Source: Amoebophrya sp. A120
Taxonomy: Eukaryota; Protista; Dinoflagellata
Length of the DNA stretch: 64,000 nt
Assembly: GCA_905178155.1 (NCBI GenBank)
Contig: CAJINV010000002.1
Coordinates: 6,490,476 to 6,554,475 of the forward strand
Reading direction: 5' to 3'
Shown: one piece after another, positions 47 to 61,500 of the stretch
How the letters are laid out: each line of letters opens with the position of its first letter
Numbering within the stretch: the stretch's first letter is position 1
The notes under the pieces: model-generated
What the model saw: only the letters and a program-made list of their open reading frames with translations
The model's database searches: none
What the model was told of the DNA's origin: nothing
Position numbers and translations under genes: made by a program

Positions 47-3000
47 CAAGACCACGCCGGCGATGAAACCTACAGTTTGCACCAAGCCTGGCAGGAACTG
101 GAGGCCGCCGAAGACGGACCCGTCTGCGAAACGGAGGTGTTGGGGCTTGTTTCCACTGGTCCTTGCGACCACGCCGGCTTCCACATTGAAGGGCTGGACA
201 ACGATGGAGAGGAAAATGCCGCGACCACTCCAGGAGCAAGAGGATCGAAAGTTGTTTCGCAGCAAACCACGACACCGAAAACGAAAGGCAGAGCGAGCCC
301 TGGTGGAGCTGCCGGGGGTAAAAAGACCAAAAAAGAGAAGCGGAAAATGAAGAAGGAAAGTTTACTCCAGGCCGGTGCAGCAGCAGACGATGATGTCGAA
401 TTGACAGGCACTGCGGCGTCCTCCGGTTCCGGTTGTGCAACAACTAAAAATTTGGATTTTTTTCCAACCGGTTGTAGTAAGCGCTTTTCGACGTCGTCTT
501 GTCAAGAAGAAGGTCAGGACGTTGACCTCCACGAGGAACAATCGCTCCAGGAAGCAATAAGGTTGCGGCCTGGTCGGCAGAAGGACACGGTCCGAGCAGT
601 GAAACGCGTGATCGAAGAGGAGACGGCCGCGTTTTTGGACAACATCCAGGAAAGGGAGAAGCAGGCCACCAAGAATCTGGTCAGCGGCATGGCCGTGCTG
701 GAGCTCGCTATTCGCCGCCCTGATTTCTCCTTTCTGGTTAACGCAGAATTTGCGAATACAACCGCAGATGATGGAACAAACGGAAACACAAATGACAATA
801 AGGCAGGAGGAACATCTTCAGATGCGAATGCCACAGCAGGTCCAAAAGTTGACTTGATCGCGCAACTCGGGACGAAGTTGGAATTTTACACGACCTACCA
901 CAAGAGTTTAGAAACGGTGTTGGAAGTGTGCCGCGCGTTTTCGAAGAATAAACAATCGGCGGAGAAGAAGGATTTGTGCTTTCAAACGTACAAGAAGCAC
1001 ATGGAAAACTTCTTTTTTCCGGATCCCGTGGTTCTAGCAACGGGGGACAGAGCCGCGGTCGAGGCGGAGATGGAGCGGAAAATGCCGTTTTTGGAGCGGG
1101 GAATCACCGCTATAACGAATGATATAGAGAAGAAGTTCGGGAGACTGCTTTTGCAGCAGATGGTAACATATGGATTGTAAAAATGTCTGGGTCTGGAAGA
1201 ATGCAAGATTTGTGATGCAGGTTTTTTATGACCCATGAGGTCTGGAATGCGAGACCCAGCATGACAGATTCTTTGAGGTCTTTATCATGCCTTTCCTGCA
1301 TGAGAGACTCCCTCTCAACTTGGTCAAAAGCGAACAGCTTTTGGTACTCACGCAACACAGATTTTTGCATCATTCAGATTTAGCATCACAAGTTCTAATC
1401 TTCCAGACCCAGACACTTTTACACTTGATATAACATCCGGCTCGGTGCCGGACGCCGTTGCCGCCCTCTACCACGAACTGAAACAGAGCGCCACGAACGC
1501 GGTCGCCGGGGAGATGAAGAATGTCTCAGCTCCCGAAAAATGCGGTCGTGCAACGGATCTTTCGAATAAAACTACGGATAGTGCGCCGGGGGAAGAAAAC
1601 TACGCCGAAAGGACCGCTTCATCTGGTAGTTCTGGAAGTAGTGCGAGCTTTTCTACTGCTGCTCGTCAACAAGATGGGGAGTCAGAAGGTGCTGCTGCTG
1701 GTGTTGTATCGGCAAACAAGCAAGGGGACGACAGCGGGGTACGACTTGGGTTGCAGTACACGGCCAAGGAGTTGGTTAGTCGGATGGACAATTTGGTCGA
1801 GCAGAACCGAGCTTCTGCGTCACAGCAGGTTCATCAATGTGCAGCGCAACACCACCCGGACCCCTTGCTGGATTTGAACATCATGCAAAACGTCCTCTCC
1901 CGGATGGAAAAGCACGCGAGAGACAAAGCGAAGCAGCGACAGAGCAAGCACGCCCACCTGCGCGACAAGAAACAAGTGAAGCAGCAGCGGCAACACGACC
2001 AGGAGTTGCAAAAGTGGGAGATTGCCGCCAAGATCGCCTCCGGCAACCAGGAGTGCTTGTTCGGTTGGCACGACATCTGCACGAACTTTTACATGGACAG
2101 TTTGGGCGGCTGCAACGTGAATTTGGAGTTTTTGCTCCGCCGGCTCTTACCCTACAACATCAAAACGACGCAAACCGTGTCCACCATGCACCTGAACGCG
2201 ATCAAAAACAACCTCGTCACCCTCGCCACCGGGCAGCCGCCGTTGAAAAAGAAGTTGCTCATCGACTGTGACCGAACGACGGGGCGAATCGCGAGACGGG
2301 AGGTGTTCGAACCCTCTAAAACCTTCGCGATCGTAGATAGCACGATCAAGCAGCTGAAGCATCTGAAGGCCTTTCAGTTTCTGAAGCAGCTGTTCAAGAT
2401 GCTGCTAACGTGGCTCGCGGATACGAACAAGTACTTGGACGGTATGCGGGAGGTGGTGAAGGCGATCGGGCTACCCACCAAGCAGAAGACGGGAGAGTAC
2501 GTATCATGTGTAAAAACGTCCCCACCCCATAGCCAAGTTGGGAACTTAGCAACACAAACCCAGAAGCTTTGGGAGCAACGCATGACAAATTCCAGTTCGT
2601 AGTGTAGTGCAGTTTAGCAAGTGCAGTCGCATCACGAATCCGTCTGCTCATCCCGTTTACAGCATTACAAATTCCAAAACGCGATTGGAAATGCCTCTCA
2701 TGGAGATGCGCGTTACAAATTTTCCTGTAATCGTAAATCTGCATGACAGCTATGGGGTGGGGACGTTTTTGCTCAGGAGAGTACGTGACCGGCGTGATTC
2801 CCGGGTCGCCGGAAGACATGCGGTTGAAGCAACTTGGGTTCAAGCACCCCACGAACGCAAACCTGTACACCCCCATCGACCACGAAAAGTCCAAGGTGGG
2901 GTTATTACAGTGAAAAATGCCCCCACCCCGAACTTGGCAGCATTTGTATTGCAAACCTTTCCAATGGAAACATTCCCCGTCTTGCATCTATCAGCATCAC

Positions 3001-4922
3001 AAATTTGCCATGCTGAATAGCTCGAATTTGTGTTGCAAAGGATCCCAACAGCAGCCGGATCTGTTATGCAAAAGATACCTTGCGCAGCTAGATTCTGCAT
3101 CAGAGAAGCTCGTAGTCCTTTCATGCAAGACAAAGAGCTTTCATTTGGAAACTTTGCATGAGAAACTCTTGCAAATTCCGGGCTGGGGGCATTTTTCAGT
3201 GCAATAGGGGTTGGATTTCGTCTCCTGCATGAAGCAGTTGATCGACGAGAACCCGTATCAAATGCAAATATGTCTGGGTCTGGAAGGATGCAACTTGTGA
3301 TGCTGTCTTTGCATTCTACCAAAATCTGTATTGTGTGAGCAGCAAGAGGAGTTCAGGTTTTGCTACGCGGAGGGCTAATTTCTCATGCGGTATAGTCATC
3401 AGGGTGCGCTTACAATATCTGTGATGCTGGGGCATGCATCACAGGCATCTTGGATCATGCAGATTGTGCATGAGAAGTCTTGCAATCTCCCAGACCCAGA
3501 CATATTTGCAATGCATAACCCGTTTGAACAGGCCATGAAACTGTTCGGGCTGGCCACGGAGATCGAAACGCTCGATTGGAATAGAATGTTGTCACCCGGA
3601 GGCGACGAGGAGTATAATGCGGAGAATATTAACAGTAGTTCTCTCGCCGATGATGCCTTCATCTCGGAAGAGATCGAGGACGAAGCGGAAAATAGTTGTA
3701 CTCCTGCAGCAGGGTCTGGGTCCTCTTCATTTTCCCCGGGAGCAGAAGGTGACGAAAACGGTGTGAAGGTGAAGCACCGCAGGGTCCGGATCCAATTTGA
3801 CGAGGAGAAAATGAGGCAGTTCAAGGCGAAACAGGTAAACGCGTTTTTGTCGATTGTGGAGAGGCTGGACTGGTACCGAATTAGCCACGCCGAGAAACAA
3901 CTGGAAGAGGACAATAAAGCGAGGGTGATGAAAATGAATGCTGGCGCAGCTTCTACTCCACAAAGTCGTGGGGTTGACCAGCACTCGGGAAAGGACAGCA
4001 GCGTTGGTGGAAAAAACAAAAAGAAGAGCTGCAATAATTCCACCGCGCCAAATGGAACAAGTAGTGCTGATCTGAAAAATATGTTCGACCCTTCTTCCAC
4101 TAGCGGCGGGCCGCAGCACCTGCTCCCAGCAACGCCCACCGCTGCTGCTGCGGCTGCGCAAAGCAGGGGCCACGTTGCGCCTCGGCGCGTCAGTGCGGGA
4201 CGGAAGTGCCTGGCCCTGGTGCCGCACTCTTACGTCGGTTTGCACGATGAGCTCAGCGCCGTGTCAGATCTGACGGGGATGGGGGGACGGGTGCAGAAGC
4301 AGGAAAAAGCAGAGGAACAAAGACAAAGAGATGAAAGTGCTGGAGCTGGTGCACATCAGGATAAAAACTTTTCAATGGAACCAGGACAACAATCTTTCAC
4401 AAGAGAAACGACGCCGGGCGATCATGATCAAGATCAAAATGAAATGGAGGACATCGAGAGGGAGATCAGGGAGAGGGAAGAGGAAATTCGGCAGCGATAC
4501 CCCGACCCGATGGACGACGTGGATTTTATGGCGTTCTCAAACGTTACATTCTCAACTGTTGCATGAATTCGTCATGCAAAAATACCTTAAGCCGGCAGAT
4601 GATCGAGCTGCTTCGCATGACAAATTTCGGAAGGGCTAGACAGCATCTAGATCTGCGCCAAACTTGTGATGCAAAAGGCGCAATCTTCTTCCTTTCACGT
4701 TTGCCAGTCTTGCATCACCCAGTTGAGAGTGTAACATTTGAGAACTCCATAGATTTGGATTTTTTCATCGGGACTACGGAATTCAAGAGCCCGGACACGG
4801 GCCATTGGTTCTTCCGCACGGAAGCGGGACGGCATTTCATGGTGCCGGAAGGCCGGTTATTCGAGATGGTGGAACAACCGGAAGAGGGAGGAGCCGGGCC
4901 GGGGGCGGAACGGAGTCCATGA
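47..4922 (+). CDS. 5'-partial hypothetical protein (~1,170 aa in window) split by five TIR/TSD elements; exons 47-1168, 1436-2501, 2786-2902, 3212-3255, 3523-4526, 4757-4922
   Basis: ORFs 77..1180, 1445..2602, 3385..4566 and 4563..4922 join in one frame after removing each element + one TSD (QMVT|SGSV, GEY|VTGV, KVG|LDFV, ENP|FEQA, DVD|LDFF). No domain recognised. Confidence 0.8.
1169..1430. mobile_element. Introner-like element, family A (262 bp), TSD TAACA
   Basis: TIR TATGGATTGTAAAAATGTCTGGGTCTGGAAGA / TCTTCCAGACCCAGACACTTTTACACTTGATA; TAACA at 1164-1168 and 1431-1435. Confidence 0.93.
2502..2780. mobile_element. Introner-like element, family B (279 bp), TSD GTACG
   Basis: TIR TATCATGTGTAAAAACGTCCCCACCCCATAGC / GCTATGGGGTGGGGACGTTTTTGCTCAGGAGA; GTACG at 2497-2501 and 2781-2785. 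Confidence 0.9.
2903..3206. mobile_element. Introner-like element, family B' (304 bp), TSD GGGGT
   Basis: TIR TATTACAGTGAAAAATGCCCCCA / TGGGGGCATTTTTCAGTGCAATA; GGGGT at 2898-2902 and 3207-3211. Confidence 0.9.
3256..3517. mobile_element. Introner-like element, family A (262 bp), interior inverted relative to 1169-1430, TSD ACCCG
   Basis: TATCAAATGCAAATATGTCTGGGTCTGG / CCAGACCCAGACATATTTGCAATGCATA; ACCCG at 3251-3255 and 3518-3522. Confidence 0.93.
4527..4751. mobile_element. Introner-like element, family C (225 bp), TSD GATTT
   Basis: TATGGCGTTCTCAAACGTTACATTCTCAACTG / CAGTTGAGAGTGTAACATTTGAGAACTCCATA; GATTT at 4522-4526 and 4752-4756. Confidence 0.9.
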
Positions 4923-13643: not shown

Positions 13644-13687
13644 AGGAAAAGTTTTTTCCCTAATGTGACGCAGTTCCAACAAGGAGG

Positions 13688-14863: not shown

Positions 14864-14889
14864 AATTTCACTCACCTCCAAGATTACAA

Positions 14890-15262: not shown

Positions 15263-16216
15263 TTGGGTCGACTTCTAGGCATTATAATGAGCAGTGGCAC
15301 ATCAACTGCTGTCGCAAGGTTTTGAGTCCGTCGCCACACTTATTGTTGTCGATCAAACTATCCTGTGTATGTGAATATCGTGATCGGTTCGGCGTGTGTA
15401 GGTCACGCGTGCCCAGCATGCTGGTACCATGCCAGGAATAAAATATCAAGTTCGTATGAATGGTGATGATCCTGGAGCATCTGGAGATCAGTTTACATGA
15501 ACAAGAAGAAGATCTTTTTCCGGTCCATGAAAATGTCAAGACGGTGACGGTGAAAAATAGTTTCCACGATCAAGAAGACATTCAGCATGTGGATCTGTAG
15601 CTGAACCAGCTTCTCGAAACACCAAGAAATCAAAATGCAAATAGACCTGGCAGGTGCCGTACTTAAAATCTATTTCGGTTTTAATATCGTTCTCCAAGTG
15701 TGACCCACAAATGAAAATGTACCGACGAGTATTTTAGTTTGAAAGACCGGCGGCAACCTTCTTGTTGCACCGCGATTGCAGTCACAACCATGAGTACCGT
15801 ACCAAAAATCACAACAGTTGTAGACGCATCCTAGTAGAAACTTCCAGTAGTAAAACGAAGCAGCTGCGGAGTCGTACACACAACTACGTCTCGCACAACT
15901 TTCAAAACCTCTTTCTTTGTAGTATTTAGTTTCGTGCCCATCTTCAAGTCAAGTCGATTTTTATGCCCAATGAATGAATGCCATAAGTAATTATTTGCAC
16001 CAAATTTTTCGGACCATCCACATCAGGTGAAAGCCTGATCTTCATCGCATCTTCGACAACTGTGTCGGTAGTAACATCAAATTACTTCTGTGCAGACGAG
16101 AACACCACGTATCTAGCACTGACATCGGACTGTTCCAAGCTCGTCTACATATCTGTTATATAATTCTGAGAACTGCTCTGCCAAACCCAAACCCAGAAGC
16201 CACAGGACAGCTAACA

Positions 16217-17755
16217 ATGATGGTCCGCGGTCACGCTCATGCAACCGGCGCCGGCACGCGCGTTGTCACAGTGCTGGCTCTCGCCGGCGCATGTCTTTTT
16301 GGACCCATTTTTCCGGTGCTCGCTGAGCCTTCCCCTTGTCAACAAACCGTAGCCTGGCACCTGCAGTACAATAACCATCCGCCTACTCGTATGCTGGAGG
16401 AGGTGGCAGCGCAGGAATCGCCGCAGTGCAAAGAGTACAAGTACCGCCAAATCACGAAAGGCGCCGAGGACAAGGAAGTCAAACGTGATACCCCTGTGCC
16501 GTCGATGCCGCCGCGCTTTTTTGGTGTGCCCAACAGCCATGGAGGCTGGTTTCACAAAACCACTTCTCCAGCACGTGGAGTGGAAATACCCGGCCGCACT
16601 CCTCCGAATGGAGAACCTGGGGCCTTGGGAAAGAACGACTTCGGGCATTTGCAGTTTGCGTTCTGCAGCAGCACGGACGACGCCAAGCCATGCAACCAGG
16701 ATGCCACGGGGGCAAGGTCCAGCGGTACGGACACCCCGCTGCACCAAGTTGCGGCAGCTATCTTTCGCGAAGTGCATCGCGATCGCGATCCGATGGAGCA
16801 GAGAAGCCACAACTACCAACACCGGCGGGTTGCGGTCTGGACCAAATCCAGCCCGAAAACCGCTGCGAGTGGTTTGCGGACGGCCGTGGCCGGTGCGGTC
16901 AAGGGGGAAACCCACAAGGAGCTGGAGATTCCCTCTTTGAAACCTTTCACCAGCCAGCTGTGCAGCGGCAGGCTGAACTGGACGCAACTCGCGGCCTCCG
17001 ACCGTACCTACCAGCGCCGCCTCGTCTTCAAGCGGCACGCCGACGCGATCCGGTTCTACACCGAACTGCAACTGTTCCAGTTGTTCACGGATTTTCGCAT
17101 CTCGCCCCAAGCCGCGGAGATGGCCGGACTACTGACGCAGCTCCCACCGTCAGAAATTGGACAATTCTCTGAGAAGTGCAAGAAGTTGACGGAGGTTTTT
17201 GAGGGCGTTCGCGCCCAGGTGGAGTACGACGTGGTCACTTTGGAGCAGGACCCGATCCTAAACCAGAAGGGCGCACCCCACCGCCGGGACCCGCAGCGGC
17301 AGCACGAACCGGCCGGGGTGCCGCAGGTGCTGGCGGCGATCGGGGAGAACTTGGAGGAAGAATTGCGAGCGTTTGCGGCGGCCGATAAGAGCACCAGGTC
17401 GGAGGTCCGGCGGCCCAAAAATCACGACATCTTCGCGACGCTGCAACGGGCCGCGCACGAGCTGTTCGGAGAGCAAACAAGATCTGCCACCAGCCCCTCA
17501 GCCGGTGGAGCTGCGGCGCCAGCAGCAGCAACCGGAGGTCTTCCCGCTGGTGAAGCAGCAGCAGCTACCTTTTCGAAGTCGCATCAGGGGAAGATTGCGG
17601 AGCGCCGCGCCAAGTCGCAGGAGCGGGACCGCGTTCGCGCGGCGCGCGAGCGTGGGAGCGCCATGCGGGAGAAAATTGCAGAGCTGCTTTTCGGCGCGTC
17701 GGACCGGTTGCAGATTTCTTTGCTCGATATGTGGCCGAGTGATGTATCAAGTTGA
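16217..17755 (+). CDS. Hypothetical secreted protein (512 aa)
   Basis: N-terminal hydrophobic signal-like stretch VVTVLALAGACLFGPIFPVLA; long intact ORF. Confidence 0.6.
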   Translation: MMVRGHAHATGAGTRVVTVLALAGACLFGPIFPVLAEPSPCQQTVAWHLQYNNHPPTRMLEEVAAQESPQCKEYKYRQITKGAEDKEVKRDTPVPSMPPRFFGVPNSHGGWFHKTTSPARGVEIPGRTPPNGEPGALGKNDFGHLQFAFCSSTDDAKPCNQDATGARSSGTDTPLHQVAAAIFREVHRDRDPMEQRSHNYQHRRVAVWTKSSPKTAASGLRTAVAGAVKGETHKELEIPSLKPFTSQLCSGRLNWTQLAASDRTYQRRLVFKRHADAIRFYTELQLFQLFTDFRISPQAAEMAGLLTQLPPSEIGQFSEKCKKLTEVFEGVRAQVEYDVVTLEQDPILNQKGAPHRRDPQRQHEPAGVPQVLAAIGENLEEELRAFAAADKSTRSEVRRPKNHDIFATLQRAAHELFGEQTRSATSPSAGGAAAPAAATGGLPAGEAAAATFSKSHQGKIAERRAKSQERDRVRAARERGSAMREKIAELLFGASDRLQISLLDMWPSDVSS

Positions 17756-18125
17756 AAAGTGCCCCCCCGCCCCCGGATGTTTCAAAGGTTTTTGTTGCAG
17801 CCTCAGCTGAAGGTTTAGCTCATCAAATCTATTCCTGCTTCGGATTCTGAGAGCGCAATAATAAAGCAGGAGCTCCCACATGACAAGTGCCCTTCGTTTT
17901 GCAACACAGAGCTTCGCTTCTCTCAATCAAAAATCTGTCATGCTACTAAGTACTGACATACGATACAACTTGCTACAGTGCGGAAAATCTTTCCACGTGG
18001 GAACTGTAGCTGCAGCACAAGCTGCGATTTAAGTTCTGGTAGCGCCGTCGGTTTAGCGCACAGCGCAAACGCTCTCACGTAGTTCTGGGGTAGGGCGGTG
18101 CTTTTCACTTTGATACCATGAGGAA

Positions 18126-18503
18126 ATGAAAGAGGTCCTCGCGTCGGTGACGGACAAAAAATCGTTCATCAAGGGATACTTAAAGGGCTGGGAGCACGCG
18201 GGACGGGCGGGCGCGAATGGGGCGCGACTTTGTGCAGCGGCCCACCGCCTCTACACCGACGTTATGGCCTCTGAAGCTCCCTCTGAAGCACCCTCTGGAA
18301 CTGCAAGGCCCGCGAGCACGTCGTTCCACCCAGGCAGTCAAGCTTATGTCCCTCGGTCTTCGGGTTCGTCTCCTGGCACATCCTCCACCCGCAGCGGGAG
18401 TCGCAGCAGCCGGATTTCGGGCAGCAGCGGTCCGAGTCGTGTGTTCTCTAGCCAAGGTGGTTCAGGCCGCGGGCGCTCTCCCCTGGTCGGAGTGCTGCCG
18501 TGA
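18126..18503 (+). CDS. Small Ser/Gly-rich hypothetical protein
   Basis: 125-aa ORF with ATG start and coding-like GC content. Confidence 0.35.
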   Translation: MKEVLASVTDKKSFIKGYLKGWEHAGRAGANGARLCAAAHRLYTDVMASEAPSEAPSGTARPASTSFHPGSQAYVPRSSGSSPGTSSTRSGSRSSRISGSSGPSRVFSSQGGSGRGRSPLVGVLP

Positions 18504-20257
18504 TCATCTCTGCGAGTCCGACGCGAGTAGTTACCTTTTTTTATGTGCAAAAATAGAAGAGATGATGTGTGCCCTTTTTTTGACGAGACTGTTTTGGATG
18601 GGCATTTTTTAAGAGACGAGAAATTTTATGGATTCCGAATCTGTAGGCAAGTAAGAACTTAGTTTTACTTCTAGACGTGGATTGATGTTACTGACAGAAG
18701 GACCACGTCGGGGTCGCCAAGAGATTCCATTTGCTGGAAAGTTTTGTAGCAGGAGGAATGTCGCATTTCACGTGCTGTTTCGCCCGGCACATCATTCCCC
18801 CTCCAGATTAAATTTCTTCTCTATTTGCTCCATGTAGTTTATTGGGCAGAGCGATTTCGGGTGATCGTACGTTCATAAAATTCAAATTGTATAAACACCT
18901 CCAGATCTTCAGGGCGGACGGAAGTAGTACACCAGGATGAGTTTAGTTGTCGCAACTTGAAGTTGTAAAATGGTATTAACAGAAGTAGCGGAGAATTTAC
19001 TGAAAAAGCGAATTTGTACGGAGGACAAGGACATACTTAGGTTCCTATACCTCTACGAGGTGGCGAACCTGTACGTGATAAACAAGATTGAGATTTTTAA
19101 AGACGTGTATGATGGTGCCTCAACAAAAAGAAAAAAGTGAGAAATCTAGTATAAGATAGCCAGGAGAACGTGAACAAGACCGCAGTATTTCTATTTGGGA
19201 TTTAACACGCATTCGCATAACACAGGTCCCGGATCCAATTTGAAAAAAGATCGTGACAGAAGACGTATTAGTATATGGTCATCACATAGAGTTAGAGATA
19301 CCTGTACCAGATGAAAAGACGATGTACCCCTGTCCATACAGTTGTATATCGCCTGTGAAAAGCAGAAGCACCGGAGTTTTTGGTTTCCACACCCCCGTGA
19401 AAAATTCGACAGAGCCCCGACGGTTACTCGTTCATCCAAAAGAAGCGACTGCGCGTGTGGTTCTCTCACTCTCTTCGGAACTAGGAGGAGATACGCAGCA
19501 GAAACTAGAATATTACAGGAAAATGTCGCTTGACTTTTGCAAGAACAAAAACAAAGTAGAACACGAGGAGGACAGCTCCTGTCGTAAGTATTTAGTACAC
19601 TGTGCCCCGCATCAGCATCAGTGCAGCCAATGGCGTAAAATGCGGACAGGGTGCGAAGTCCACTGTCATGTCGTTTTCGGAGCAGAGCGCAGCATTTTTG
19701 TTGCTGCGACAGAAATAACTCGTCAAGAGATGAGGAGATGAGATGTCGCACAAATATGCGGAGAAAATTGTTGAGGTGAGAGATCAGGTGTCCTCGCAAA
19801 TGTGCGTAACAAGTACTGCATCCGCTTTTGAACGTGTGCGTGTTGTGGAGTTGTCAGAGCGACAGGTGGAAGTTTCTGTGAGTTGTTCTCCTTATTCCTC
19901 CTCCGAAGTAGCGTTGGCTCGAGGACTCGGGTTATATCCATGGACCTTCTTCCTTGTCCTCGCGAATGTTAAACGGCCGCATGATGCGCATGGTGCTCAT
20001 AAATATTGCAAAGGTCTTCGTCTTCTGTAGCGCACAAAATAAAGTGCTTCCAACATTCACGCGCGCTGCGCGGACCCCGCCTCCACTGCTTGCACTTCGA
20101 CAGAATGTACACCGGAACCAGAAATTGTGACAGCCAGCACGACGTCGTGTACAACCTTGCACTATCTTCGAGGGCCAGCATGCTGCAGCGACGTCAAAGT
20201 TTATTTTCTTAGCACGAGCAGAAGCATTACATCACGACGACCTTCCTCGAGCGGAAT

Positions 20258-23200: not shown

Positions 23201-24214
23201 GCAAAACAGTGACGATTTGTGGCCACAGATCAGCATTGCAAATTTTCTGTGGCCTCCTTTTCGATATGGGGAGGGTGGATTTTTCCTTGCGATAGAGGTC
23301 TCGGTCGATGCTCGGCTTTGGTCTCTCCCCGACGTCGGGCTCCGGGCCATATCAAATGCAAAAATGTCTGGGTCTGGAACGTTGCAAGACTTGTAATGCA
23401 GGTTTTCCATGACCCATGAGGTCTGGAATGCGAGTCCCATCATCACAGATTCTTTGAGGTCTCTACCATGCCTTTCCTGCATGAGAAACTCCCTCTCAAC
23501 TTAGTCAAAAGCGGACAGCTTTTGGTACTCACGCAACACAGATTTTTGCATCATTCAGATTTAGCATGACAAGATTTAGCGCAGTTCAGATTTAGCGAAG
23601 TTCAGACTAGCATGACAAGTTTTAATTTTCCAGACCCAGACATATTTGCAATGCATAGGCCAGTATCGCCCGCAATGGAAAAGAAGCAGGTGGAGCAAGC
23701 CAAGCCGGTGATCCAGGAACTCGTGAAGGACCTGACACTGCAAATCACGAAGCAAGTGATGGAGACTCTGGAGAAGGACGAAATGCAAGAGAAACTTCTC
23801 CGCTATGAGCCGGACAACATCGAAAGGTTTCACGAGAGCGTCATGCGGGAGAAGAACCGGTTGATTCAACTGGAGGAAAAACGGAAAGAACGGATACGGT
23901 TGAAGCACGGCGTGGACGACCTCGATTTCTCGGCCGTGGGGAAGACGTACGACCACAAGGGGTTGGACAAATTCTTTCTCGAAGAAGAAGATGAGACTGT
24001 GAAGCCGACGAAACTGAACGCGAGCGCCGCGATGGGGCAGTCCGCCGGATCGGCCGGGCTCGGATTGGTGGAAAAGTCGGAGACCATGATCCGGCACCAG
24101 GAGCGGATTCAAAGAAAGGAAAAAGCGAAAAAGCAGCGATTACTGGAGGAGGAAGAGGAAAGGGACCAGATGCTGGCGAGGTTGGCGAAAAAGCAAGTGC
24201 TGGCAACGGAATAG
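20258..24214 (+). CDS. Hypothetical ~949-aa protein with N-terminal MGGC (predicted myristoylation/palmitoylation) and coiled-coil C-terminus; exons 20258-20353, 20672-22462, 22604-22964, 23300-23349, 23663-24214
   Basis: Removing four elements joins MGGCFPTAL...AEPR|QCLESK, VEIAP|PAEQDL, MGGR|SRSML and GSGP|VSPAM into one frame; total exon length 2850 nt. Confidence 0.78.
20354..20666. mobile_element. Introner-like element, family E (313 bp), TSD CGAGG
   Basis: TATGGAAGCGTCAGAATTGAAATCGTCAAAGTTGAA / TTCAACTTTGTCAATTTCAAACCTGACACTCCCATA; CGAGG at 20349-20353 and 20667-20671. Confidence 0.88.
22463..22598. mobile_element. Mini introner-like element, family G (136 bp), imperfect TSD CACCT/CGCCT
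   Basis: TATGAACTGCAAAAGTATCGT / ACGATACTTTTGCACAGGATA (14-bp perfect core). Removing 141 nt fuses ORFs 20678..22519 and 22535..23110 in frame. Confidence 0.82.
22965..23294. mobile_element. Introner-like element, family D (330 bp), inverted relative to 34606/37962, TSD GAGGT
   Basis: TATCAAAAGGAAAAAT...CCCATATCGAA / TTCGATATGGGG...ATTTTTCCTTGCGATA; GAGGT at 22960-22964 and 23295-23299. Confidence 0.9.
23350..23657. mobile_element. Introner-like element, family A (308 bp), TSD GGCCA
   Basis: Family A TIRs; interior closely matches 1169-1430; GGCCA at 23345-23349 and 23658-23662. Confidence 0.93.
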
Positions 24215-42500: not shown

Positions 42501-45500
42501 ATCGACCACGTGAAGAGGCTAAACCGGAATGTCTGCCTGTTGAAGAGAATCCCGTTTCCGAAGAACAAATCGATCCAGCCGCTACTGTATGGATTGCAAA
42601 AGTGTCTGGGTCTGGATAAGTGCAAGGTTTGTCATGCTAGGCTAGCAAGACTCTTAAGTCTTTCATGCAGGTTACCCAAAGGCCCTGTGATGCAGAAACG
42701 CAGTTTGTCACGCAGAATAGGCAAGAACACCTGGAAGCTCAGAAACTTGTCATGCCGAGCCGGCACTTGTGGCCTCCACATTCTAAGTCACTCAGCATTA
42801 CGAGTTTCCAGACCCAGACATATTTGCATTGCATATACTGGAAGAATTTTCCATCGGCATCACCTCCCCCTATGCGGCCCAAGTGGAGCTACTCCGCGAG
42901 ACCGTCCAATCGGAGTTTGGGTTTGCGCAGGCGACGGAGCGGATCAAAATCCGGTCGATCGACGGGTTCCAGGGGGGAGAAGCGGATATCATGTTGATAT
43001 CCTGCGTCCGGAGCAACGAGAAGAAAGTGGTTGGCTTTTGCAAGAACCCGGCGCGGTTGAACGTCGCGCTGACACGGGCGCGGCTCGCTTTGCACATTTT
43101 CGGCGACAGTGAGACATTGTCTTTGGGGGACCCGAAACACTGGAAGCTCTTTGTCGATTTCTTGCGGGAGAAGGAACTGATTTTTGATCTCGCTGCGCGG
43201 CAACACGCGAAAATCGTGGAGAAGGACGTGACCGGGAGAACCCGAGAGGCTCTCCGCGTGGTCGAGAACGCGCTGAACGCGGGGAATGGGCTCTTAACGG
43301 GTGAAATTTCCCGGCCGACTTTGACGCACAACCCGAACTTGTTTCGCGGCCAGGACGAGATGTCCGCACTGGCGATGCACGTAAAGAAAATGGAATTCGA
43401 AATGCCGAAGCAATTCTTGCAAGGTACGGAACAACAGCGGGAGGACGAAAGTAGACACGAAGATTTGAAGTTCAACATCTCGCCCAACCTCAACAAGCTG
43501 CGCTGGTGGATGGACCCGAAGGCGGAGGGAAATGTTTTCGCGATCGTCTTTTCTGAATTCGCGCAACGGTGGTACAATGCGGGGCAGAGGCTCTTGCAGC
43601 TGAAAATCCTGATCGCCGCGGAAATCGCGGGTTTAGTGAAGGGGGAGAAGATGCGGATCCACCCGGACAGTCAGATCAGGAACTTCAGCGAGGAGGAACT
43701 CGTCAACGCCGCGGCCGAGCACCTCCAAGTTCGACCGCAGATCGCGAACGGTGGCGCAACTGGCGTCGCGGTACAGACGAAAATTACCTCCTCCGGTCTA
43801 GAGTCGTTGAAGTCCATGAACAAGAGGCAGCAGCAGCAGTACGACCAAATGTCAGTCGACATTCTGTGGCACATGCAGATCGACACGGACACGGGGAAGC
43901 AGCTAATTGTCGTTTGGAACATCGTGCACGCCGGGCAGTTCAAGCAGGCGCGGGCGGAACATTTACAGGAGTTGCGGCGGTTCAAAACGGAGTATTTGCG
44001 GGACTGTTTAGTTCGGAAAACAACCGCGAATGCCGGAACATCAAGCGGCAGCGCAGGGGACCAAGGAAAAAAAGGAGCAGGGAAGAAAGGCACTTCGGAG
44101 AAGCAGGCCCGGGGGGTGTTGGTCGTCCCCTACATGCCGATCGATGAACGCACCCAGCAGAGGAAGTACAAGGTGAATTACGATCACTTGAAACCCTTAT
44201 CCAGACAGGAGTACGGGGAGCTGCTCGCGAAGAACCAGAAAGACGGGATGAGCCTCAACCTCCACGGGGAGAAGAACACGATCGGCATCTCGCGGACAAA
44301 ATTGTACGACGTGCACGGTGCGCAGGCGATGCGCTTGCTGATGGCGGACAAACCCGTGATTCTGCCCCTAAAACTTTCCCAGGAGGAGAAGCAGGCGGTT
44401 CGGCACCCGCGGTCCATCTTCGTCCATGGTCGTGCCGGTACGGGGAAGACGCAGGTTTTGGTCGCAAGAGGGTACGAGCACCAAACCATGTGGATCAAGG
44501 AGCTGGAGGACACGGCGGGAGAAGTAGAACATAGCACCACAGCAGCCGCTTTACCTCCCATCGAGGAGGAGCTGGACGAAGAGAAGTTGAAAGCGGAGGG
44601 TTTGAGCCGGATGCAGATCAAGATGCGAATTCTGAAAGCCCAGCAAGCCAGGAAGCAACGCGAGAAGGAAGCGAAGAAGCGCACGCAGGAGCGGGAGAAG
44701 ATGAAAAAGGAAAACTTGAAGCTTGTCCTGTTCGTGACCGCGTCGCCCACATTGGCCATGCAGGTGAAGAAGTTCTATGATGGGCTCTTAGAGTCGTACT
44801 TGGTAGCCGAGAAGAACAAAGACAGCGTTTCCTGGGCGCAACGGGGGGACGAGGTGTTGAAGAAATTGAACATGGAAAAACAGATGGATTTGGAGGGGAA
44901 TCTAGTAGAAGGTGGTGCGACGATTGAAGAAGTTGATGACGATGTTGACCAAGCAGATGAGGAAAATAACAACTTCGACAGCGACGATGACCAAAATGAG
45001 AAGGACGAGCTGAAACTGCTAGAAGATTTATCCCTCTCCGACTACGACGACGCGGATTTTTTGGAGTTCGATCCGGTGGACGAGCAGGTTTTAGCGAACG
45101 CGAAGCCTCTCGAACATTTTCGCACGCCGAAGAACAAAAAATCTTCCTCGTCGTCCAGCGACAACGACGACGCGGACACGTCAGAAATTGTCTCCTCGAT
45201 CGTGTCCACACCGAGTTCCTCGAAGACCTCCCGCGCGGCTAGTTCCACGACGAACGCGCCGGGGTCGTCCGGGGTCGTGTCGAGTGCTGATGTCGTCGGA
45301 ACTACAAATAAGGACGTGACGCATGGTGCAACTAGTACACCGGGTGTCACGAACGACCAGACTGACACGAGCGGGAAAACTTTGCTCCAGTCCTCGACCA
45401 AGTCGCAACACACGGCGAAGAAGAAGTACCGGCAACGGCTTGGTACCAATCATGGGGCAACTTCTGCCACCACCTCCGCTGCGACAGAGAAGAAAAGGGC

Positions 45501-48500
45501 GGATAAGATGATCAAGGATATTTCCAACAAGGACAAAACGGACAATATCCTGAGTAAAAATGTCCCCACACCAGAGTCAAGATGGGAAATCTGCTAGACA
45601 AATCTACAAGTTTTGGCTGTCTTGCATGACAAATTTGGACTCGCAGTGTAGTGCTGTTTGAGCTACCTCAGAAGCATCACAGATCTAATATATCATGCTG
45701 ATTGGAGCATGGCAAATTCCAAAACACAACTAGAAAATGCTTCTCATGGGGATCCGCATGAGAAACATTCTCAACATGCAGATTTGCATTACAACTATGG
45801 CGTGGGGAACTTTTTTCAGTACGATAGACAAGGAGAAGGCGGACGAGGAAGAACTCGTCGCGGCCTACGCTGAGGCCAGTGTTGGGATCGGGTTTGCCGT
45901 ATCAACTGCAAATATGTCTGGGTCTGGAAGATTGCGAGATTTCTCATGCTAGTCTGGCATGACTCTGAACTCTGTGTTGCATGGCCGCGAAGAGCTCCTC
46001 CTCCCTGTCATGCAAAAACGCAGTTTGTCATGCGGAGTACTTACGCAACTGCAACTCAGAGCCATGAAAAAAACCTGTCATGCTTTGCAGCGCATCATAG
46101 TGAGTTCACTATTCCCTCTCTTGCATCACAAGTTTCCAGACCCAAACATATTTGCAAGGCATACGCCCCTTTGACCCCGCAAGAGCGGCAGAAGGAGGTC
46201 GCCCGGATGCCGAAGACGTTCTCCGAGATCCGGGACCGGGCGGAGCACGGGGCCGCGAGTTTGATCACGAATTATTTGCACTTTTTACAGGTGTTAGACG
46301 CCAGTATCGACGACGACGAGGAATTTTTCCGGATAAACAAAACGGAACAGTGGATGGCGGATTTTCACACGCTCCCGCCGGACGAAAACCGCTTCGAGCC
46401 GAAGCACCCGGATTCCGAGGTCAATTTCCGCCGTTTCTGCATCAACTACTACGACAGTCTCCGCGGCGGGGACGCGGATACAGAGAACGCGAGGTCTTCC
46501 TCTTCTTTGATACCGACAAGTAGTTCCAGCAGTCCGCACGGGATTCTCTCGTCCATGGGAGGACAACTGACAACGCCGAACAGTAGTTCCTCGTCTTTGG
46601 ATCAACTCCAAGCGGCACTAGGCCAGCAGCAATTATCCGGAGGCAACATCGGGCTCAAAGAGCTCGTCCGGGGAGTTGCTGCGGTGCCCGATGCGAGTCA
46701 GCTCTTTAAGGAGTTCCACATCATCAAGGGCGACTACCCGCCGGAAACCCGCCAGCACAAAACGGAACTAGACGACGTGTTAGACATGGCGGAGAAGCAG
46801 CACTACGGCGGGAACGCGCGGACCACCGCCCACCGCGTCCGGCCGAAGCTGATGGAGGGCAATCTGGGCCGATTAGACTCTTCGAAAGCGAAGGACAAGT
46901 ATGGGCGCAGGCATCGGGACAAGGACGCGGAAATTTACTTGTTGCAGAAGGAGGGAAAGGATGTCGACACGGAGCAGCTGCAGTACATTGACAACCTCTC
47001 CAAGCAGCAGGAAGCGCTGAAGGACCCGCTGTCGCACATCGGGGAGACGTTGACCCAGAAGCAGTACGTGGACGACCCCCCGGCGGAATCTCTGCTGCAG
47101 AACGCGTCCCGAGCGGACCGGGAGAAGGTGTACAAAGCCTTCGAGAAATACGAAGCGCACAAAAGAAAGCGGAACGAGTGGGACATGAACGACTGCGTGT
47201 CGAAAATTTGGGAGCGGTTGTCGTGGCGGCTGCGGCGAAGGAACGAGAACGAAGACAGGAAGGGGCTGCTGAAGGACAACCAGCTCTACAACGGGCCGCT
47301 GGTTAGTTGCTTGCTATCGGACGAGTCGCAGGATTTGTCCATTTTGCAAATGCTTCTGTTCGCGTTGGTGTGCCAGGACCCGAACGCGTTCACCTTCGCC
47401 CACGACCCCGCGCAGTGCATTGCGGAGGGGCGGGTTTTCAAGCACGCGCGGCTGAAGGATTTGTGGCACGGATTGTACAAGAAGATTCTGAAGCAGGCCA
47501 ATGTCGAGGGCGACACGGAGGAGGAGAGGCAGCAAAAAGAGCGGGACTTCAAGGTCGAAATGCCCGCGGAGATCCACCTCACCCGGAATTTCCGTGCGCC
47601 GCAGCGGATTCTGAACATGGCGCAGGTTTTGGTCGAGATCTGCAAGCACTTCTGGCCGAAGCGCATCGACGAGGCAGCGCCGGAGATTTCGTACGAACGC
47701 GGGGAACTGCCGACGATGGTGGTCGGCGTCTCGGCGAAACAGTTCCGCAACGCCTTGCTGTCCGCCGGTGCGGATGATCCGTTGCTCAGCGGGCAAGCCG
47801 GATCGATTGCGGAGAAGAACCTCCAGGATGCGGAGAAAGCGCTCGCGAACAAGTCGGGAGTGTCGAAAAAGAAAAACAAACAGGTGAACTTGCAAAAGGT
47901 GACGTCTACCACCGCGTTGAAGACGGGGAATGAAGGTACAACTAGTATTAACTCAGCGACCAGCACGACCCCCGGAGCAGTTGTAAGTGCCTCTACTTCA
48001 ACTACCGCTGCAGCAGCCGCGGGGGGCGGGGGCTCCGGGAAAAACATGTTCAATCCTGCAACCAATTCTGGCGGGGGGATCACCACCTTCGGCGCGGATC
48101 AGGTGGTTTTAGTTGGCACGGAAGAGGAGAAAAATTTCGTGGATCAGTTGCTCGGAGATCGCGGGATCGTCGTCTTATTGCCGGCGGAAGCGAAGGGGCT
48201 GGAGTTCAACGACGTCATTCTGTGGAACTTAGTCAGCCGCAGTGGGGTCGACGGGGAAAGGGAAGAGAAAGTTTGGACGGTTCTGTTCGATTTCATGCGG
48301 GCGTGTCTCGCGCAGTCCAATGTGCAGCAACTGAGAGAAGATAATACGAGAAATACTGGTCGTCAACAAGGCCGAACCACTTCTAACACCGCTGCAGCAG
48401 CGTCTTCGAAGCAAACGGAGGCTGAACAAGAGAACTCCGAGGACTTCCCAGACTCCGACGACCTTGAGGAAAACCAGCAAACTGATCAGCAGCAGGGTCC

Positions 48501-56803: not shown

Positions 56804-58596
56804 GGTGAAATCTGTGTTTGGTTGTTCATGATCTCGTCGTCATGCGGCCGCTACGCAAGGGAAACCCATCTGCTGCCGAAACGCAAGCAAAGGAGCAAGG
56901 ATTTTACTGATGTCGGAGTGCAGAATTGCGACCATCAAGTTGTAGTTGCGCAGGGGTTCGTTTCCTGCTTGTTTGAAACAGCAGCGCAGAAGAGATGGAC
57001 ACTTCCTAGCCTATAACGTACGATTAGGAAATAAAATGTGCCATGGAAGTAGATAACAAGCACAGAAGTCAAAGCTCTTTAGCTTTTACAGGCCTGAGAA
57101 TATAGGTGGATCGTGGTTTGAACAATCAACATGCACATGCTCCTCTTCTATCTGAAGAACTTCGGCTGAGAATTTGGCTTGGGTTTTGCTAGACCAGTGC
57201 TTCTGTGTCGTTTGTGACGGTCAATCATACGAAGCCAAACAGTACGCAGCGGTGGTCTCGACGTGCGGGAGTGGTCAGTGACACTACTAGAGTATACAGA
57301 GAATAAAGGCCTTCCCTCGCGGAAGAAACAGACGAAAGGCCTCTTGGTATTGGCTGGCTCGACCACCTGCTAAATTTCTGGTACGAAGAGGTACTAGAAG
57401 AGCATCTCGCCACAGGCACAGCAGCTCGAGGCGCAGTTGCTATCCAGTTTTTTCCTGCGATAGAAAAGGTGGGAGGTCCTCGCTAGCACATTGTAGAACC
57501 TACCCCGTCCATGTTTACGACTTTTTCAACTTCTTTATTTTATATCAGGCAGTGTGGAGATCGTCGGGAGCAGAATCATGTGCACCGCGATCAGATAAAG
57601 AATGTAGATCTCAACAACTGAAAAAATGACACGACGAATTTGCGCTTTTGTTGTAGCGACAACTAAAATACAAAAGGTTGCAAGCACGAATGAAATCTTC
57701 CACTATTGATTGCTTTCATCTCCTCGACATATGATGAATTTTACACAGTATGTATTCGCTTTTTCCTGCGACGAACAGGAACAAAAGCAGGCTGAGAAGT
57801 CGGATCAAAAACGTGTTGACGAGTTGTTCATGCAATTTTCGCTCGTTCGCTCGCACTCCCCGTGGAGATCTTCGAGAAGATCATTGTGGGAGACCCTAGC
57901 TGTTTCGGTTTTGTGAAGATTCATCACGCTCCTGAGAAATGTCGCTGTCGTGCTGGCGCCAAGATATTTATGATCACTTCGATCTTTTGCGAACATATCA
58001 ATATCTTTTGCATTTGATGTCGTGAGCTGGTAAAAAGTTCGATGGTCACGTCCTCCTCTCGGCTGAGATTCCTGTTTCGAAAGTAGTTCCTCTTGAGATC
58101 GATGATCCTGCGAGATCTTAAGAAATGACTGGAAGCTCCTGGTAGATCTACAACTACAGCGAAGAAAATGTGATCATCGCTGCGCCCAGCATGCATTGAA
58201 TATCGGTTTCAGCATCATTGTACTCAACCCGAAGGCGTCGGGCTGGAACAACTACAGAATGCAGACTTTCCGCACGACGCTGACTCACGCTCACCGAGAA
58301 CAGCATTCTTCTTTAGTCTTCACACAGAGTACAAATTCTCTTCTAGTTAGTACTTGTTTTGTGCACTTTTATTTGAATAGCATTACGTAGACGTTACTCA
58401 CCCCGAACTTGCAGAGAAGAAGGCGACCTAGACATATATACCAAACGACCAACATTTTGGGCGAAGAATGAAGATGGAACGAGGACGACCAGAGGACCAT
58501 CTTCAACTACACCTGCAAAAACGTAGCATTATGTGTGGCGAAACAAAGCGAATAAAGATGAAGCTCGCGCATTCTTCCGGGCTTCGGTCTGAGTCG

Positions 58597-61500
58597 ATGT
58601 CTCTTCGTCGCGCCGTAGTGCTTCGATTCTTCATCCTGCCGTTGTTCACTGTAGTCGAAGCGCTTCCGCGACCTGCCGTGGATCCGCATGCGTACTACGA
58701 GTTTCTGTTTGGCTACCCCGAAACAGAAGTTTTCACTCCGCCTGGGCACCGCGCTGACAATGCCACTAATTTAGCGATTAGGAACAACTTCGATGTCAGC
58801 TTTGAAAGGGTGCCGTTCGAACCGAACTACACAAGGACTCCAGATCATGGTGGAGGTGGCACGGCAAATAATCTTCAAGCTCAGGATATTCTGATTAAAA
58901 ACGTCCCCACACCAGAGTCAAGTTGGCAAATCTGCTAGACAAATCACACAGCTTTGGTCGTTTGGCATGACAAGTTTGTCCTCGTAGTGTAATCCTGTTT
59001 CGCTAGCTCAGAAGCATTACAGATCTAGCCTACCATACTGATTCTAGCATCACAAATTCCAAAACACGAATAGAAAATGCTTCTCATAGGGCTCCGCATG
59101 AGAAACTTTTTTGGCATGCAGAATTGCATGACAACTCTGGGGTGGATACGTTTTTACATAGGATACAGGATCCTGCCCTGTCGGAATTTCTCACCACTTG
59201 GGTTGCGAAGCTGAAGAGTCGGCTATCCTGAGTAAAAACGTACCCACACCAGAGTCAGGATGGGGATTTTGCAACACAAACCTAGGACTTTTGTGAGTCA
59301 CGCATGACAAGTTGCACTATGCAGTGTAGTGCAGGTTCGCAAGTGCAGCCGCATCACAGATTCATCTGCTCATCCTGTTCACAGCATCACAAATTCCAAA
59401 ACACGACTGGAAATGGCTCTCATGGGGATGCGCATTACAAGCCTTTCTGTCTTTGCAAATCTGCATTACAACTTTGGTGTGGGTACGTTTTTACTCAGGA
59501 TATCGGCGGAACAACCGAGAGCTGCATGCCGGGAAATTTTCTTCGATTACCGTGGGAGAATTTGAGGCGTCCCTGAAGCAGAAGCTCGCGGGAAAAAAAT
59601 TCACGGCTTTGTCCGATACCAATTCTACCTTCACCGCCAAACGGTTTACCTTGTCCGACGCGAGCACGGACATCGGACAAGTCACTGCGTCGCACCCGCT
59701 GGCCACCATCCAGGGCGCCAGTCAAATGAACGGCTTGGAGCAAACGTCGGACAACGCCGACCCGCATGGCATTGTGAACTACTTCTCTGACGACACCCAG
59801 GGCCCCGCAGTCGCCCTCACCGGGTTCGCCGGGACGCTGTGGCGCAACCACTTTGTGCGGCTCGGGAACACAACTCCGACGAACCGGCGACGTGTTATCG
59901 ACGAGACGGCCGCGACCCCGTACGACCCAGCGGACCTGTTTCGGGGGCAGACGGCTGATAATCTCGGGCCCGGTGGAATCAGGCGGCGGTTCGACGAAGT
60001 CCAGCAGCTGGACAGCTTCCACGGCGTGTGGGCCGCGATTCTGCAGGCCGCGGGTTCTGCCACGGACGCAAACGCCGCTGGATACCCGGTCCGCAACGGG
60101 TATCTGCAAGTTGATGATGTCCGAACGGAGTTCCAAAACGCGCGTAGAAGTACTACTACCGGTAACCCGGTCCTCGGGGACGCGCAAATCGAGCAGATTT
60201 TTCGCGACCGGCTCCGGGTGCACGTCCAAGAGGACACGGAGTTTACGGGCTACCGCGACGCGACTGGTCGCGGCCAACTCGCGCCGGATTTGGGTGGAGA
60301 CATCAATACCAGCAAGCCTTTCAAGGAAAAGCATCTGATTACCCAAGTGTACGGGTCCGGCATCCCCGGACCCTCCGCGGTCGACGTGGACGAGATATCA
60401 AATGTAAAAATGTCTGGGTCTGGAAGATTCTAAACTTGTAATGCTGTCTCTGGATTCTAAAAAAATTTGTATTGCATGACCAGCAAAAGGGCTCCAGTTT
60501 GTGCTACGTGGAGAGGGCATTTCTCATGCGGTAGAGGCATCACAAAGTCCTCTAAAGATCTGTGATGCTAGGGCATGCATCAGCATCACAGACATCATGG
60601 GTCATTCAAAATATGCATGACAAACCTGGCAATCTTCCAGACCCAAACACTTTTGTAGTTGATACGAGAATGCGCCGAACAACGTGGCGGTTTTCTACAA
60701 GAATTTTCTGCGGTACCAGTACCGTGCGGCCTTCGCCGTCGCACTGCGACAGGCGGTCAAGTATCGTATTTAAAAACGTCCCCACCCCATAATTGTCATG
60801 CAGATCTGCAAGCACAAGTGCACTTGTAATGCGTATCCCCATGATAGGCATTCCCGATCGTGTTTTGGAACTTGTAATGCTGTAAACAGGATAAGCAGAT
60901 GGATTTGTAATGCGACTAAACCTTGCTAAACTGCATTACAATACGGCCTGCAATTTGTCATGAGTGGCTCCCAAACCTTCAAGGTTTGTGTTGCAAAATC
61001 CCCATCTTGACTTTGGTGTGGGGACGTTTTTACTCAGGATATCAAGTGGAACTTCGGGAAGTCGTCGAGAAAGCTGTTTCTGACCGGGCTGGGGTACGGG
61101 GTGTGGTCGGGGGGGCAGGAAGCCGCGTTGACGGAGATTTTGAAAACCGTGATCGCCGAAGCGTTCTTCGCCTACCGGAACTGCGGCTTGGAGGTTCAGC
61201 TTATCGTCGGAGCGTCGCCGGCGGTGGTGAGCAATCTGCTGCAGGGGGTGCAAGAGAAAAAGCAGCAAATGCTCGCGGACAACAAGGACGATAGCGTCTG
61301 TGGACTGGGGTTGAATGATCCTCATCCAGGAGGCAATTCGCCTGGTGGAGGTTCTCCCGGTGGCGGCGGTTCTGGCGGTGGCGGTTCTGGTGGCGGTGCT
61401 GGTGGCGGTGGTGGTGCTGGCACTCATCCTCCAACAGTTCATCCAGCCGGCACGCCCAGGAGCAGTTCAGTCACGTACACGCCGATAGTCTTTTGGGCGC

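What the first reader, a model, noticed from the sequence alone, without database searches (positions are those of the whole stretch)
1169..61041. Multi-family invasion of exons by TIR/5-bp-TSD elements that must be removed with single-base precision
Seen: 21 complete elements of 136-330 bp in 7 families (A x9, B x5, D x3, B', C, E, G) interrupt five genes. All have TAT...ATA termini (one AGA), TIRs and 5-bp TSDs. Removing element + exactly one TSD restores the frame every time, including conserved motifs (transporter KNCF|RG, helicase LL|EEFSIGITSPY). Known: Amoebophrya genomes are reported to carry non-canonical introns with inverted repeats and short direct repeats, so the class is probably not new; to my knowledge the removal mechanism and mobilising transposase are unresolved. 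Inference: MITE-like elements functioning as introns.
Basis: partly seen in the sequence, partly recalled or inferred. Interest (0 to 1): 0.9.

Follow-up and report, generated by a model that had tools for sequence, protein, structure and literature searches.

The report
Transposon introns cut inside their footprint
In the marine parasite Amoebophrya A120, short transposon copies sit inside coding exons in either direction and are missing exactly from the RNA although they lack normal splice signals; the class is already published, but copies with imperfect flanking repeats show that the join lies inside the repeat, which makes the still unknown splicing route testable.

Summary
Real, and a published class: these are the introner elements of Amoebophrya sp. 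A120 (Farhat 2021). Eighteen have an exact 5-bp duplication (TSD), four an imperfect one. RNA contigs lack element + 5 nt at 6 of 8 sites laid. The annotated A120 proteins, and an AT5 orthologue at four sites, read colinearly across the joins.

Not found in the main texts I read: (1) removal works in both element orientations within one gene; (2) at 45900 (TGCCG/CGCCC) the RNA keeps base 1 of the left copy and base 5 of the right copy, and the orthologue has the matching F-A-P, so the join lies inside the TSD, not at the TAT/ATA ends; (3) no offset gives shared splice dinucleotides.

Best reading: the terminal inverted repeats set a cut at a fixed offset, likely by a U1-less spliceosome (0.45); a non-spliceosomal cut-and-ligate route is close (0.38). 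No transposase was found; the ends fit the integrase-like Ginger/IS3/IS481 clade. The scan earlier noted similar hairpin introns in other dinoflagellate genomes (unchecked).

The parts
1169..1430 (+). Family A element, 262 bp, TSD TAACA/TAACA
   Evidence: in-frame stops if kept; about 94% identical to a copy in another assembly
2502..2780 (+). Family B element, 279 bp, ends AGA, TSD GTACG/GTACG
2903..3206 (.). Family B' element, 304 bp, TSD GGGGT/GGGGT
3256..3517 (-). Family A element, reverse orientation, TSD ACCCG/ACCCG
   Evidence: (I1)
4527..4751 (.). Family C element, 225 bp, TSD GATTT/GATTT, lacks the N7-AAA motif
17745..18115 (.).
20354..20666 (.). Family G element, 313 bp, TSD CGAGG/CGAGG; can be read GT..AG at one offset
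22463..22598 (.). Family E element, 136 bp, imperfect TSD CACCT/CGCCT
22965..23294 (-). Family D element, reverse orientation, TSD GAGGT/GAGGT; can be read GT..AG at one offset
23350..23657 (+). Family A element, 308 bp, TSD GGCCA/GGCCA
34606..34932 (+). Family D element in the transporter gene, TSD GCTTT/GCTTT
   Evidence: RNA contig skips 34601-34932; protein KNCFRG; orthologue ungapped
37962..38286 (+). Family D element, TSD AAATC/AAATC
   Evidence: in-frame stops if kept; absent from the annotated protein; no bridging RNA contig listed
38892..39157 (-). Family A element, reverse orientation, imperfect TSD AGTTC/AGTTT
   Evidence: removed in RNA contig X1 record 3
39226..39488 (+). Family A element, TSD TCCCC/TCCCC
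   Evidence: removed in the same RNA contig; fold z -8.4
41149..41399 (-). Family A element, reverse orientation, TSD AAGCG/AAGCG
   Evidence: one-sided RNA support; protein and orthologue colinear
42588..42835 (-). Family A element, reverse orientation, inside the AAA_12 domain, TSD TACTG/TACTG
   Evidence: RNA contig skips 42583-42835
45546..45826 (+). Family B element, TSD GACAA/GACAA
45900..46163 (-). Family A element, reverse orientation, imperfect TSD TGCCG/CGCCC; key site, RNA keeps T-GCC-C
58887..59165 (+). Family B element, TSD CAGGA/CAGGA
59224..59502 (+). Family B element, perfect 25-bp inverted repeat, TSD TCGGC/TCGGC
60396..60664 (-). Family A element, reverse orientation, TSD CGAGA/CGAGA
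60762..61041 (-). Family B element, reverse orientation, TSD TCAAG/TCAAG
   Evidence: (I2, I5)
47..4919 (+). Host reading frame 1 (five elements), no family assigned
16031..18500 (+). Host reading frame 2 (one element)
20213..24211 (+). Host reading frame 3 (four elements)
31222..35660 (+). Amino-acid transporter gene (PF01490), A120 protein CAD7934325.1
36534..50436 (+). SF1 helicase gene (AAA_11, AAA_12, UvrD-type), seven elements; A120 protein CAD7934327.1 (5595 aa) continues past a canonical intron at 50390-51177
58432..61823 (+). Host reading frame 6 (four elements)

Best explanation
These are non-coding transposon copies with TAT...ATA ends and a 5-base duplicated target that are missing from RNA contigs together with one duplicate's worth of bases, in either orientation, with the join inside the duplicate; they are likely spliced out by a modified, U1-less spliceosome that takes its position from the paired element ends rather than from GT-AG. 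Shown: the anatomy; net loss of element + 5 nt (6 of 8 sites laid); loss in both orientations; join after base 1-4 of the TSD at 45900. Predicted: each element folds into one long hairpin closed by TAT/ATA, with both TSD copies single-stranded at its base. Inferred: a factor reading TAT-N7-AAA on both arms sets two cuts at fixed distances that sum to five bases, so any target and either orientation give a perfect join; spread was by an integrase-like DDE transposase acting in trans. I put RNA-level, end-guided removal at about 0.85 and the spliceosome as the enzyme at about 0.45 overall.
For: RNA contigs skip 34601-34932 and 42583-42835 exactly, and leave 69 and 63 nt across the two element pairs, as element + 5 predicts. 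X4 also skips a GT..AG intron at 27756-27913, so it is spliced RNA. 38892 and 45900 match 39226 better reversed (158 and 160 identical columns against 141 and 140), and one contig removes both 38892 and 39226. At 45900 the contig resumes at 46165 with no mismatch; the A120 protein and the AT5 orthologue both read GFAPLTP, which needs base 5 from the right copy. Folds with z -4.4 to -8.4 leave both TSDs unpaired. For the spliceosome: U1 was not detected in A25 and A120 while U2, U4, U5, U6 (A120) and 83 of 89 proteins were (PMC7789003 section 10); U1 is present in the canonical-intron strain Kv (PMC12005148 passage). By my reading, the 3' arm gives a U-tract, then UA-N, at offset 1, and the 5' arm gives N-UAU at offset 4, both resembling relaxed splice sites (inference).
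Against: No offset gives common terminal bases: only 2 of 22 can be read GT..AG, each at a different offset. GT..AG introns persist in the same genes. In some searches, with 20-nt flanks, the outermost TAT/ATA pairs were not formed. The internal join rests on one firm site and one weaker site (38892, middle piece not listed). All RNA evidence is reverse-transcribed and assembled; X1 and X4 are only guessed to be RNA. U1 may be too divergent to detect. No lariat or branch-point evidence.
Confidence: 0.45

Rival explanations
1. Same substrate and geometry, but a separate protein endonuclease-ligase route, independent of the spliceosome, measures from the hairpin base and rejoins the exons, as suspected for Euglena nonconventional introns.
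For: Removal is blind to orientation and target sequence. Euglena introns are defined by paired ends with fixed 3-nt and 5-6-nt spacers (PMC12501133 passages) and are released as circles without lariats (PMC11282704 passage). Canonical GT..AG introns coexist in the same genes.
Against: Does not explain why U1 is missing in the two strains rich in such introns. Fritillaria shows that a spliceosome can adapt to transposon-derived non-canonical ends. No candidate enzyme was identified.
Confidence: 0.38
2. The elements are cut out of DNA in the transcribed, vegetative nuclei (like ciliate internal eliminated sequences), so RNA lacks them without any splicing.
For: Loss of element + one TSD is what precise DNA excision would give, and the ends are transposase-type. 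The life stage of the DNA run is unknown.
Against: DNA contigs of X5 run from exon through the TSD 23-29 bases into the element at six sites, and no empty-site joint is among those listed (contigs show presence, not absence). Element sequence is present in the RNA runs.
Confidence: 0.06
3. The skips are reverse-transcriptase jumps across hairpins flanked by direct repeats, and the genes are dead or never made whole.
For: A hairpin with direct repeats at its base is the known recipe for such artefacts (PMC8240250 passages), and the RNA data are cDNA.
Against: Kept elements bring in-frame stops even when length preserves frame (3 of 3 translated), yet the flanking frames stay open for up to 3990 codons. 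They match the AT5 orthologue without gaps at four joins. A site with only a 3-base match (45900) is removed exactly. About 29,850 such introns are reported genome-wide.
Confidence: 0.03

Closest known systems
Introner elements (IEs) of Amoebophrya sp. A120 (Farhat et al. 2021, PMC7789003; abstract, passages, sections 10, 11, 12, 16 read; supplements not seen)
   Same: Same strain, same TAT + 7 nt + AAA end motif (39 of 44 ends), short direct repeats, similar length, non-GT-AG, removed in RNA.
   Different: The main text gives variable 3-5-nt repeats partly overlapping the inverted repeat, says the border position is unknown, and argues against general transposase mobilisation. Here the repeat is a uniform 5 bp directly outside TAT/ATA, the join is bounded to offsets 1-4, and both orientations are removed.
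A120 introner family 38 and other A120 TIR introners (Gozashti et al. 2025, PMC12130899; passages read, datasets not seen)
   Same: TIR DNA-transposon introners in A120; one family has an ORF related to Copia/Gypsy integrase-like sequence, a plausible mobiliser.
   Different: I could not link any family here to family 38, and found no coding copy.
Euglena nonconventional introns (PMC12501133, PMC11282704; passages read)
   Same: Hairpin-paired ends, slidable direct repeats, cuts at fixed spacers outside the stem, likely MITE origin, coexistence with GT-AG introns.
   Different: Signature N3-CDG...CHG-N5-6|R instead of TAT...ATA; polar (one swapped configuration fails), unrelated lineage.
Ginger2/TDD, IS3EU/GingerRoot and IS481EU transposons (PMC10045372; passages read)
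   Same: IS481EU ends TNT..AYA, IS3EU ends TA..TA, Ginger2 TSD 4-5 bp; the ends here are TAT..ATA, with one TCT end in the window and one TGT-type end in L026.
   Different: No named superfamily combines TAT ends with a 5-bp TSD in the passages read (IS3EU 6 bp; IS481EU about 4, 15 or 25 bp); no transposase to classify.
Spliceosomal introners of Micromonas and Aureococcus; Fritillaria non-canonical introns (PMC11282704; passages read)
   Same: MITE-derived introns with TIR and TSD.
   Different: Those supply or co-opt definite splice dinucleotides (GT/GC-AG; AG-AC/AT); these have none in common at any offset.

Membership tests
Amoebophrya A120 introner elements | Host is A120 | tested here: met
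   Two window proteins are 100% identical to A120 records CAD7934325.1 and CAD7934327.1
Amoebophrya A120 introner elements | Inverted repeats at both ends, starting TAT + 7 nt + at least three A | tested here: met
   39 of 44 ends; TAT-N7-AAAA 38 matches in the window against 4.9 expected, 30 of them element ends
Amoebophrya A120 introner elements | 3-5-nt direct repeats at the borders | tested here: met
   5 bp, exact in 18 of 22
Amoebophrya A120 introner elements | Removed in RNA-seq, non-GT-AG ends | tested here: met
   6 of 8 sites laid are bridged by contigs; 20 of 22 have no GT..AG at any offset
MITE | Short, non-coding, TIR + TSD, many copies | tested here: met
   136-371 bp; families at unrelated sites; about 770 stored stretches estimated for one family-A end in the metagenome collection
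MITE | Cognate autonomous element with matching ends | tested here: inconclusive
   None among 8 long candidates read; whole genome not held
Ginger2 / IS3EU / IS481EU clade | Termini and TSD length of a named superfamily | tested here: inconclusive
   Ends fit TNT..AYA or TA..TA; 5-bp TSD fits Ginger2 only
Ginger2 / IS3EU / IS481EU clade | Integrase-like DDE transposase | not testable with these tools
   No coding copy found; records behind the loci could not be searched
Euglena nonconventional introns | N3-CDG...CHG-N5-6|R signature | tested here: not met
   Stem opens with TAT/ATA
Euglena nonconventional introns | Excised as circles without lariats | not testable with these tools
   Needs raw reads of excised introns
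Spliceosomal GT-AG introners (Micromonas type) | One splice site from the element, one from the TSD, giving GT/GC..AG | tested here: not met
   2 of 22 only, at different offsets

The most novel reading that the evidence does not exclude
Amoebophrya A120 runs a second nuclear splicing route with no spliceosome: a factor, possibly transposase-derived, reads the TAT-N7-AAA hairpin on RNA and cuts at fixed distances inside the two target duplications, so that any copy of a whole transposon clade is harmless at any site and in either orientation. It would be an alveolate parallel to Euglena, serving some 30,000 introns.
Probability: 0.35. Interest if true: 0.9.

Novelty: already known. Interest (0 to 1): 0.42.

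Why it matters
How A120 removes some 30,000 introns without splice signals has been open since 2021, partly because direct repeats hide the cut site. Imperfect duplications remove that ambiguity: 4 of 22 copies here, and 7 of 30 read in a second assembly, are informative, so existing RNA-seq could fix the register at thousands of sites. Offset 1 or 4 would point to a relaxed spliceosome reading the element end as acceptor or donor; offset 2-3 to a symmetric nuclease; a mixed offset to sloppy cutting rescued by the repeat, or to an artefact. The same trick gave Euglena its splicing code.

Tried and rejected
Whole genome not held, so no genome-wide count, transposase search or TSD statistics. 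The script machine was lost, so the planned G-U versus A-C asymmetry test of the stems was not run, and later tallies are by eye. RNA was not read at 17745 and 22463, so offset 1 versus 2 or more is open. No RNA holder on record was listed; X1 and X4 are guessed RNA. Raw-read run X8 laid only 139 reads, all on element ends, none on exons: uninformative. Family-A end: 0 matches in viral contigs. No autonomous copy among 8 long candidates: most were separate short elements, three (L002, L013, L036) were family-A copies with long inserts, and the two scanned had no ORF over 137 aa. Integrase search in the records behind the loci was not possible. Two helicase searches missed the A120 protein because of length limits. 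No Rfam match in 30000-64000. No Pfam match, hence no transposase, in 11 of 11 other window ORFs scanned. Six of eight mismatches in near-perfect TSDs are synonymous (window 4 of 6; L062, L070), about p 0.08 by my rough estimate: a hint of variable offset, not evidence. Supplements of PMC7789003 could not be seen, and those of PMC12130899 were not requested; they may already state TSD length or orientation. Look-up of earlier findings by sequence gave nothing.
Full report
Observation. A scan for TAT..ATA/AGA ends, an exact flanking 5-mer and at least 14 of 25 inverted-repeat matches gave 18 elements, against 1, 0, 0, 0, 0 in five shuffles. Alignments confirm the families A x9, B x5, D x3. TAT-N7-AAAA occurs 38 times in the window against 4.9 expected, and 30 of these are element ends; with three A, 39 of 44 ends match. 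All 22 elements lie in long + strand frames. Removing element + 5 nt opens one frame across all elements of each of six genes; 0, 3, 4, 6 or 7 extra bases do not. Three of three elements translated in frame carry stops, including two whose length would keep the frame.

Identity. The transporter and the helicase are 100% identical to Amoebophrya sp. A120 proteins. Farhat et al. 2021 (PMC7789003; abstract, passages and sections 10, 11, 12, 16 read) describe 29,850 A120 introner elements with inverted repeats starting TAT + 7 nt + AAA and 3-5-nt direct repeats. They report U1 undetected, no transposase in A120, and the intron border as unknown. The finding is therefore that class. Gozashti et al. 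2025 (PMC12130899, passages) add an A120 family with inverted repeats and an integrase-like ORF.

RNA. I laid 4 of 10 listed runs on 27001-46900, which holds 8 elements. X4 record 9 skips 34601-34932 (327 + 5). X1 record 5 skips 42583-42835 (248 + 5) and has 69 nt between 45540 and 46165, as loss of both 45546 and 45900 with 5 nt each predicts. X1 record 3 has 63 nt between 38886 and 39489, matching loss of 38892 and 39226. That is 6 of 8; 41149 has one-sided support and 37962 no listed bridging contig. X1 and X4 are guessed to be RNA; X4 also skips a GT..AG intron at 27756-27913. DNA contigs of X5 run 23-29 bases into the elements at six sites, and no empty-site joint is among the rows shown (942 joints were not shown). 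Raw-read run X8 did not cover the exons. The annotated helicase lacks all seven elements in the same register, but it probably derives from similar cDNA data and is not independent.

Orthologue. A protein model from strain AT5.2, whose introns are 99.98% canonical, aligns without a gap across the joins at 34606, 41149, 42588 and 45900. This is independent of reverse transcription in A120.

Where the join lies. At 45900 the left copy is TGCCG and the right CGCCC. At perfect sites the tool starts the downstream piece at base 1 of the right copy. Here it starts at base 2, with no mismatch through base 5, so the RNA reads T-GCC-C: base 1 from the left, base 5 from the right. The A120 protein and the AT5 orthologue both read GFAPLTP; keeping the whole left copy would give GFAALTP. 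The cut thus falls after base 1, 2, 3 or 4, and the changed bases are the intronic ones. 38892 agrees (offset at most 4) but its middle piece was not listed. 17745 and 22463, which would separate offset 1 from larger offsets, were not read in RNA.

Orientation. 38892 and 45900 match 39226 better reversed (158 and 160 identical columns against 141 and 140), and the internal motifs line up only so; 1169/3256 and 59224/60762 are long inverted pairs. One RNA contig removes 38892 and 39226, which are opposite. The signal must lie in the symmetric ends.

Splice signals and structure. No offset gives common end dinucleotides; 2 of 22 can be read GT..AG, at different offsets. Three elements folded with only their TSDs form one long hairpin closed by TAT/ATA, with both TSDs unpaired (z -8.4, -4.5, -4.4). 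With 20-nt flanks two folds (z -6.0, -7.1) did not close the last pairs. By my reading, offset 1 makes the 3' end U-tract...UA-N, like a relaxed acceptor, and offset 4 makes the 5' end N-UAU, like a relaxed donor; both lie within the allowed range. U1 is reported in the canonical-intron strain Kv (PMC12005148, passages) and missing in A25 and A120, which tilts me to a modified spliceosome (0.45). Euglena's hairpin introns, with fixed spacers and circular products (PMC12501133; PMC11282704; passages), keep a non-spliceosomal route close (0.38). RT skipping (PMC8240250, passages) cannot explain intact, conserved frames around stop-bearing inserts, though it could blur the offset seen in cDNA.

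Elsewhere. The family-A end gave 0 matches in viral contigs and 182 stretches in metagenome contigs from 10 of 64 parts scanned; all 176 loci kept come from one assembly prefix. In eight stretches read by eye, 23 of 30 elements had an exact 5-bp duplicate; one degenerate long copy and one element whose far end I did not place were left out. A copy there is about 94% identical to 1169. No autonomous copy turned up among 8 long candidates. Ends and TSD fit the integrase-like clade loosely (IS481EU TNT..AYA, IS3EU TA..TA with 6 bp, Ginger2 4-5 bp; PMC10045372, passages); this is a lead, not a classification.

Novelty. The class, the strain and the spliced gene models are published. Searches found no paper, in the open library searched, that gives the cut offset, orientation independence or the enzyme. 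Supplements of PMC7789003 and PMC12130899 were not seen, and Roy et al. 2023 was seen only as a reference entry; any of these may cover TSD length. Earlier notes of this scan describe similar hairpin introns in other dinoflagellates (unchecked). Verdict: already known, with a usable new handle on an open mechanism; interest 0.42.

Noticed in passing
window 50390-51177: Canonical GT..AG intron of the helicase gene (the annotated protein joins across it and runs to 5595 aa). It holds a 95-bp, 98% inverted repeat (50609-50703 / 50858-50952) built of GTAC-rich 8-mers, unlike the TAT..ATA families.
   Followed up: partly
window, inside families A, B, D: A shared internal motif, TTGT(C/G/A)ATGC in the left half and its complement GCAT(G/C/T)ACAA in the right half, recurs several times per element across families; possible protein-binding sites.
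   Followed up: no
L013 5001-6255: Family-A copy carrying an insert of about 970 bp flanked by a 20-bp duplication of element sequence; outer TSD only 3 of 5.
   Followed up: partly
L036 632-1465; L002 3141-5028: Family-A copies of 834 bp (exact TSD) and about 1.9 kb (degenerate left end) with long inserts; L036 has no ORF over 137 aa.
   Followed up: partly
L026 3401-3667: Family-A copy whose right end is ACA (TGT-type) with an exact TSD, hinting at integrase-like end tolerance.
   Followed up: no
run X8 laid on 39405-39432 and 41368-41399: 73-113 raw RNA reads from one other locus keep a family-A-like 3' end, while the window's exons have no reads: a retained element end in an expressed RNA, perhaps of another strain.
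   Followed up: no
P0007 (AT5.2 model): The 6501-aa model fuses the transporter and the helicase, which suggests the two genes are neighbours in AT5 as well.
   Followed up: partly
window 13421-13643 and 15034-15262: Two 80%-identical direct repeats about 1.6 kb apart, probably a tandem gene duplication.
   Followed up: no
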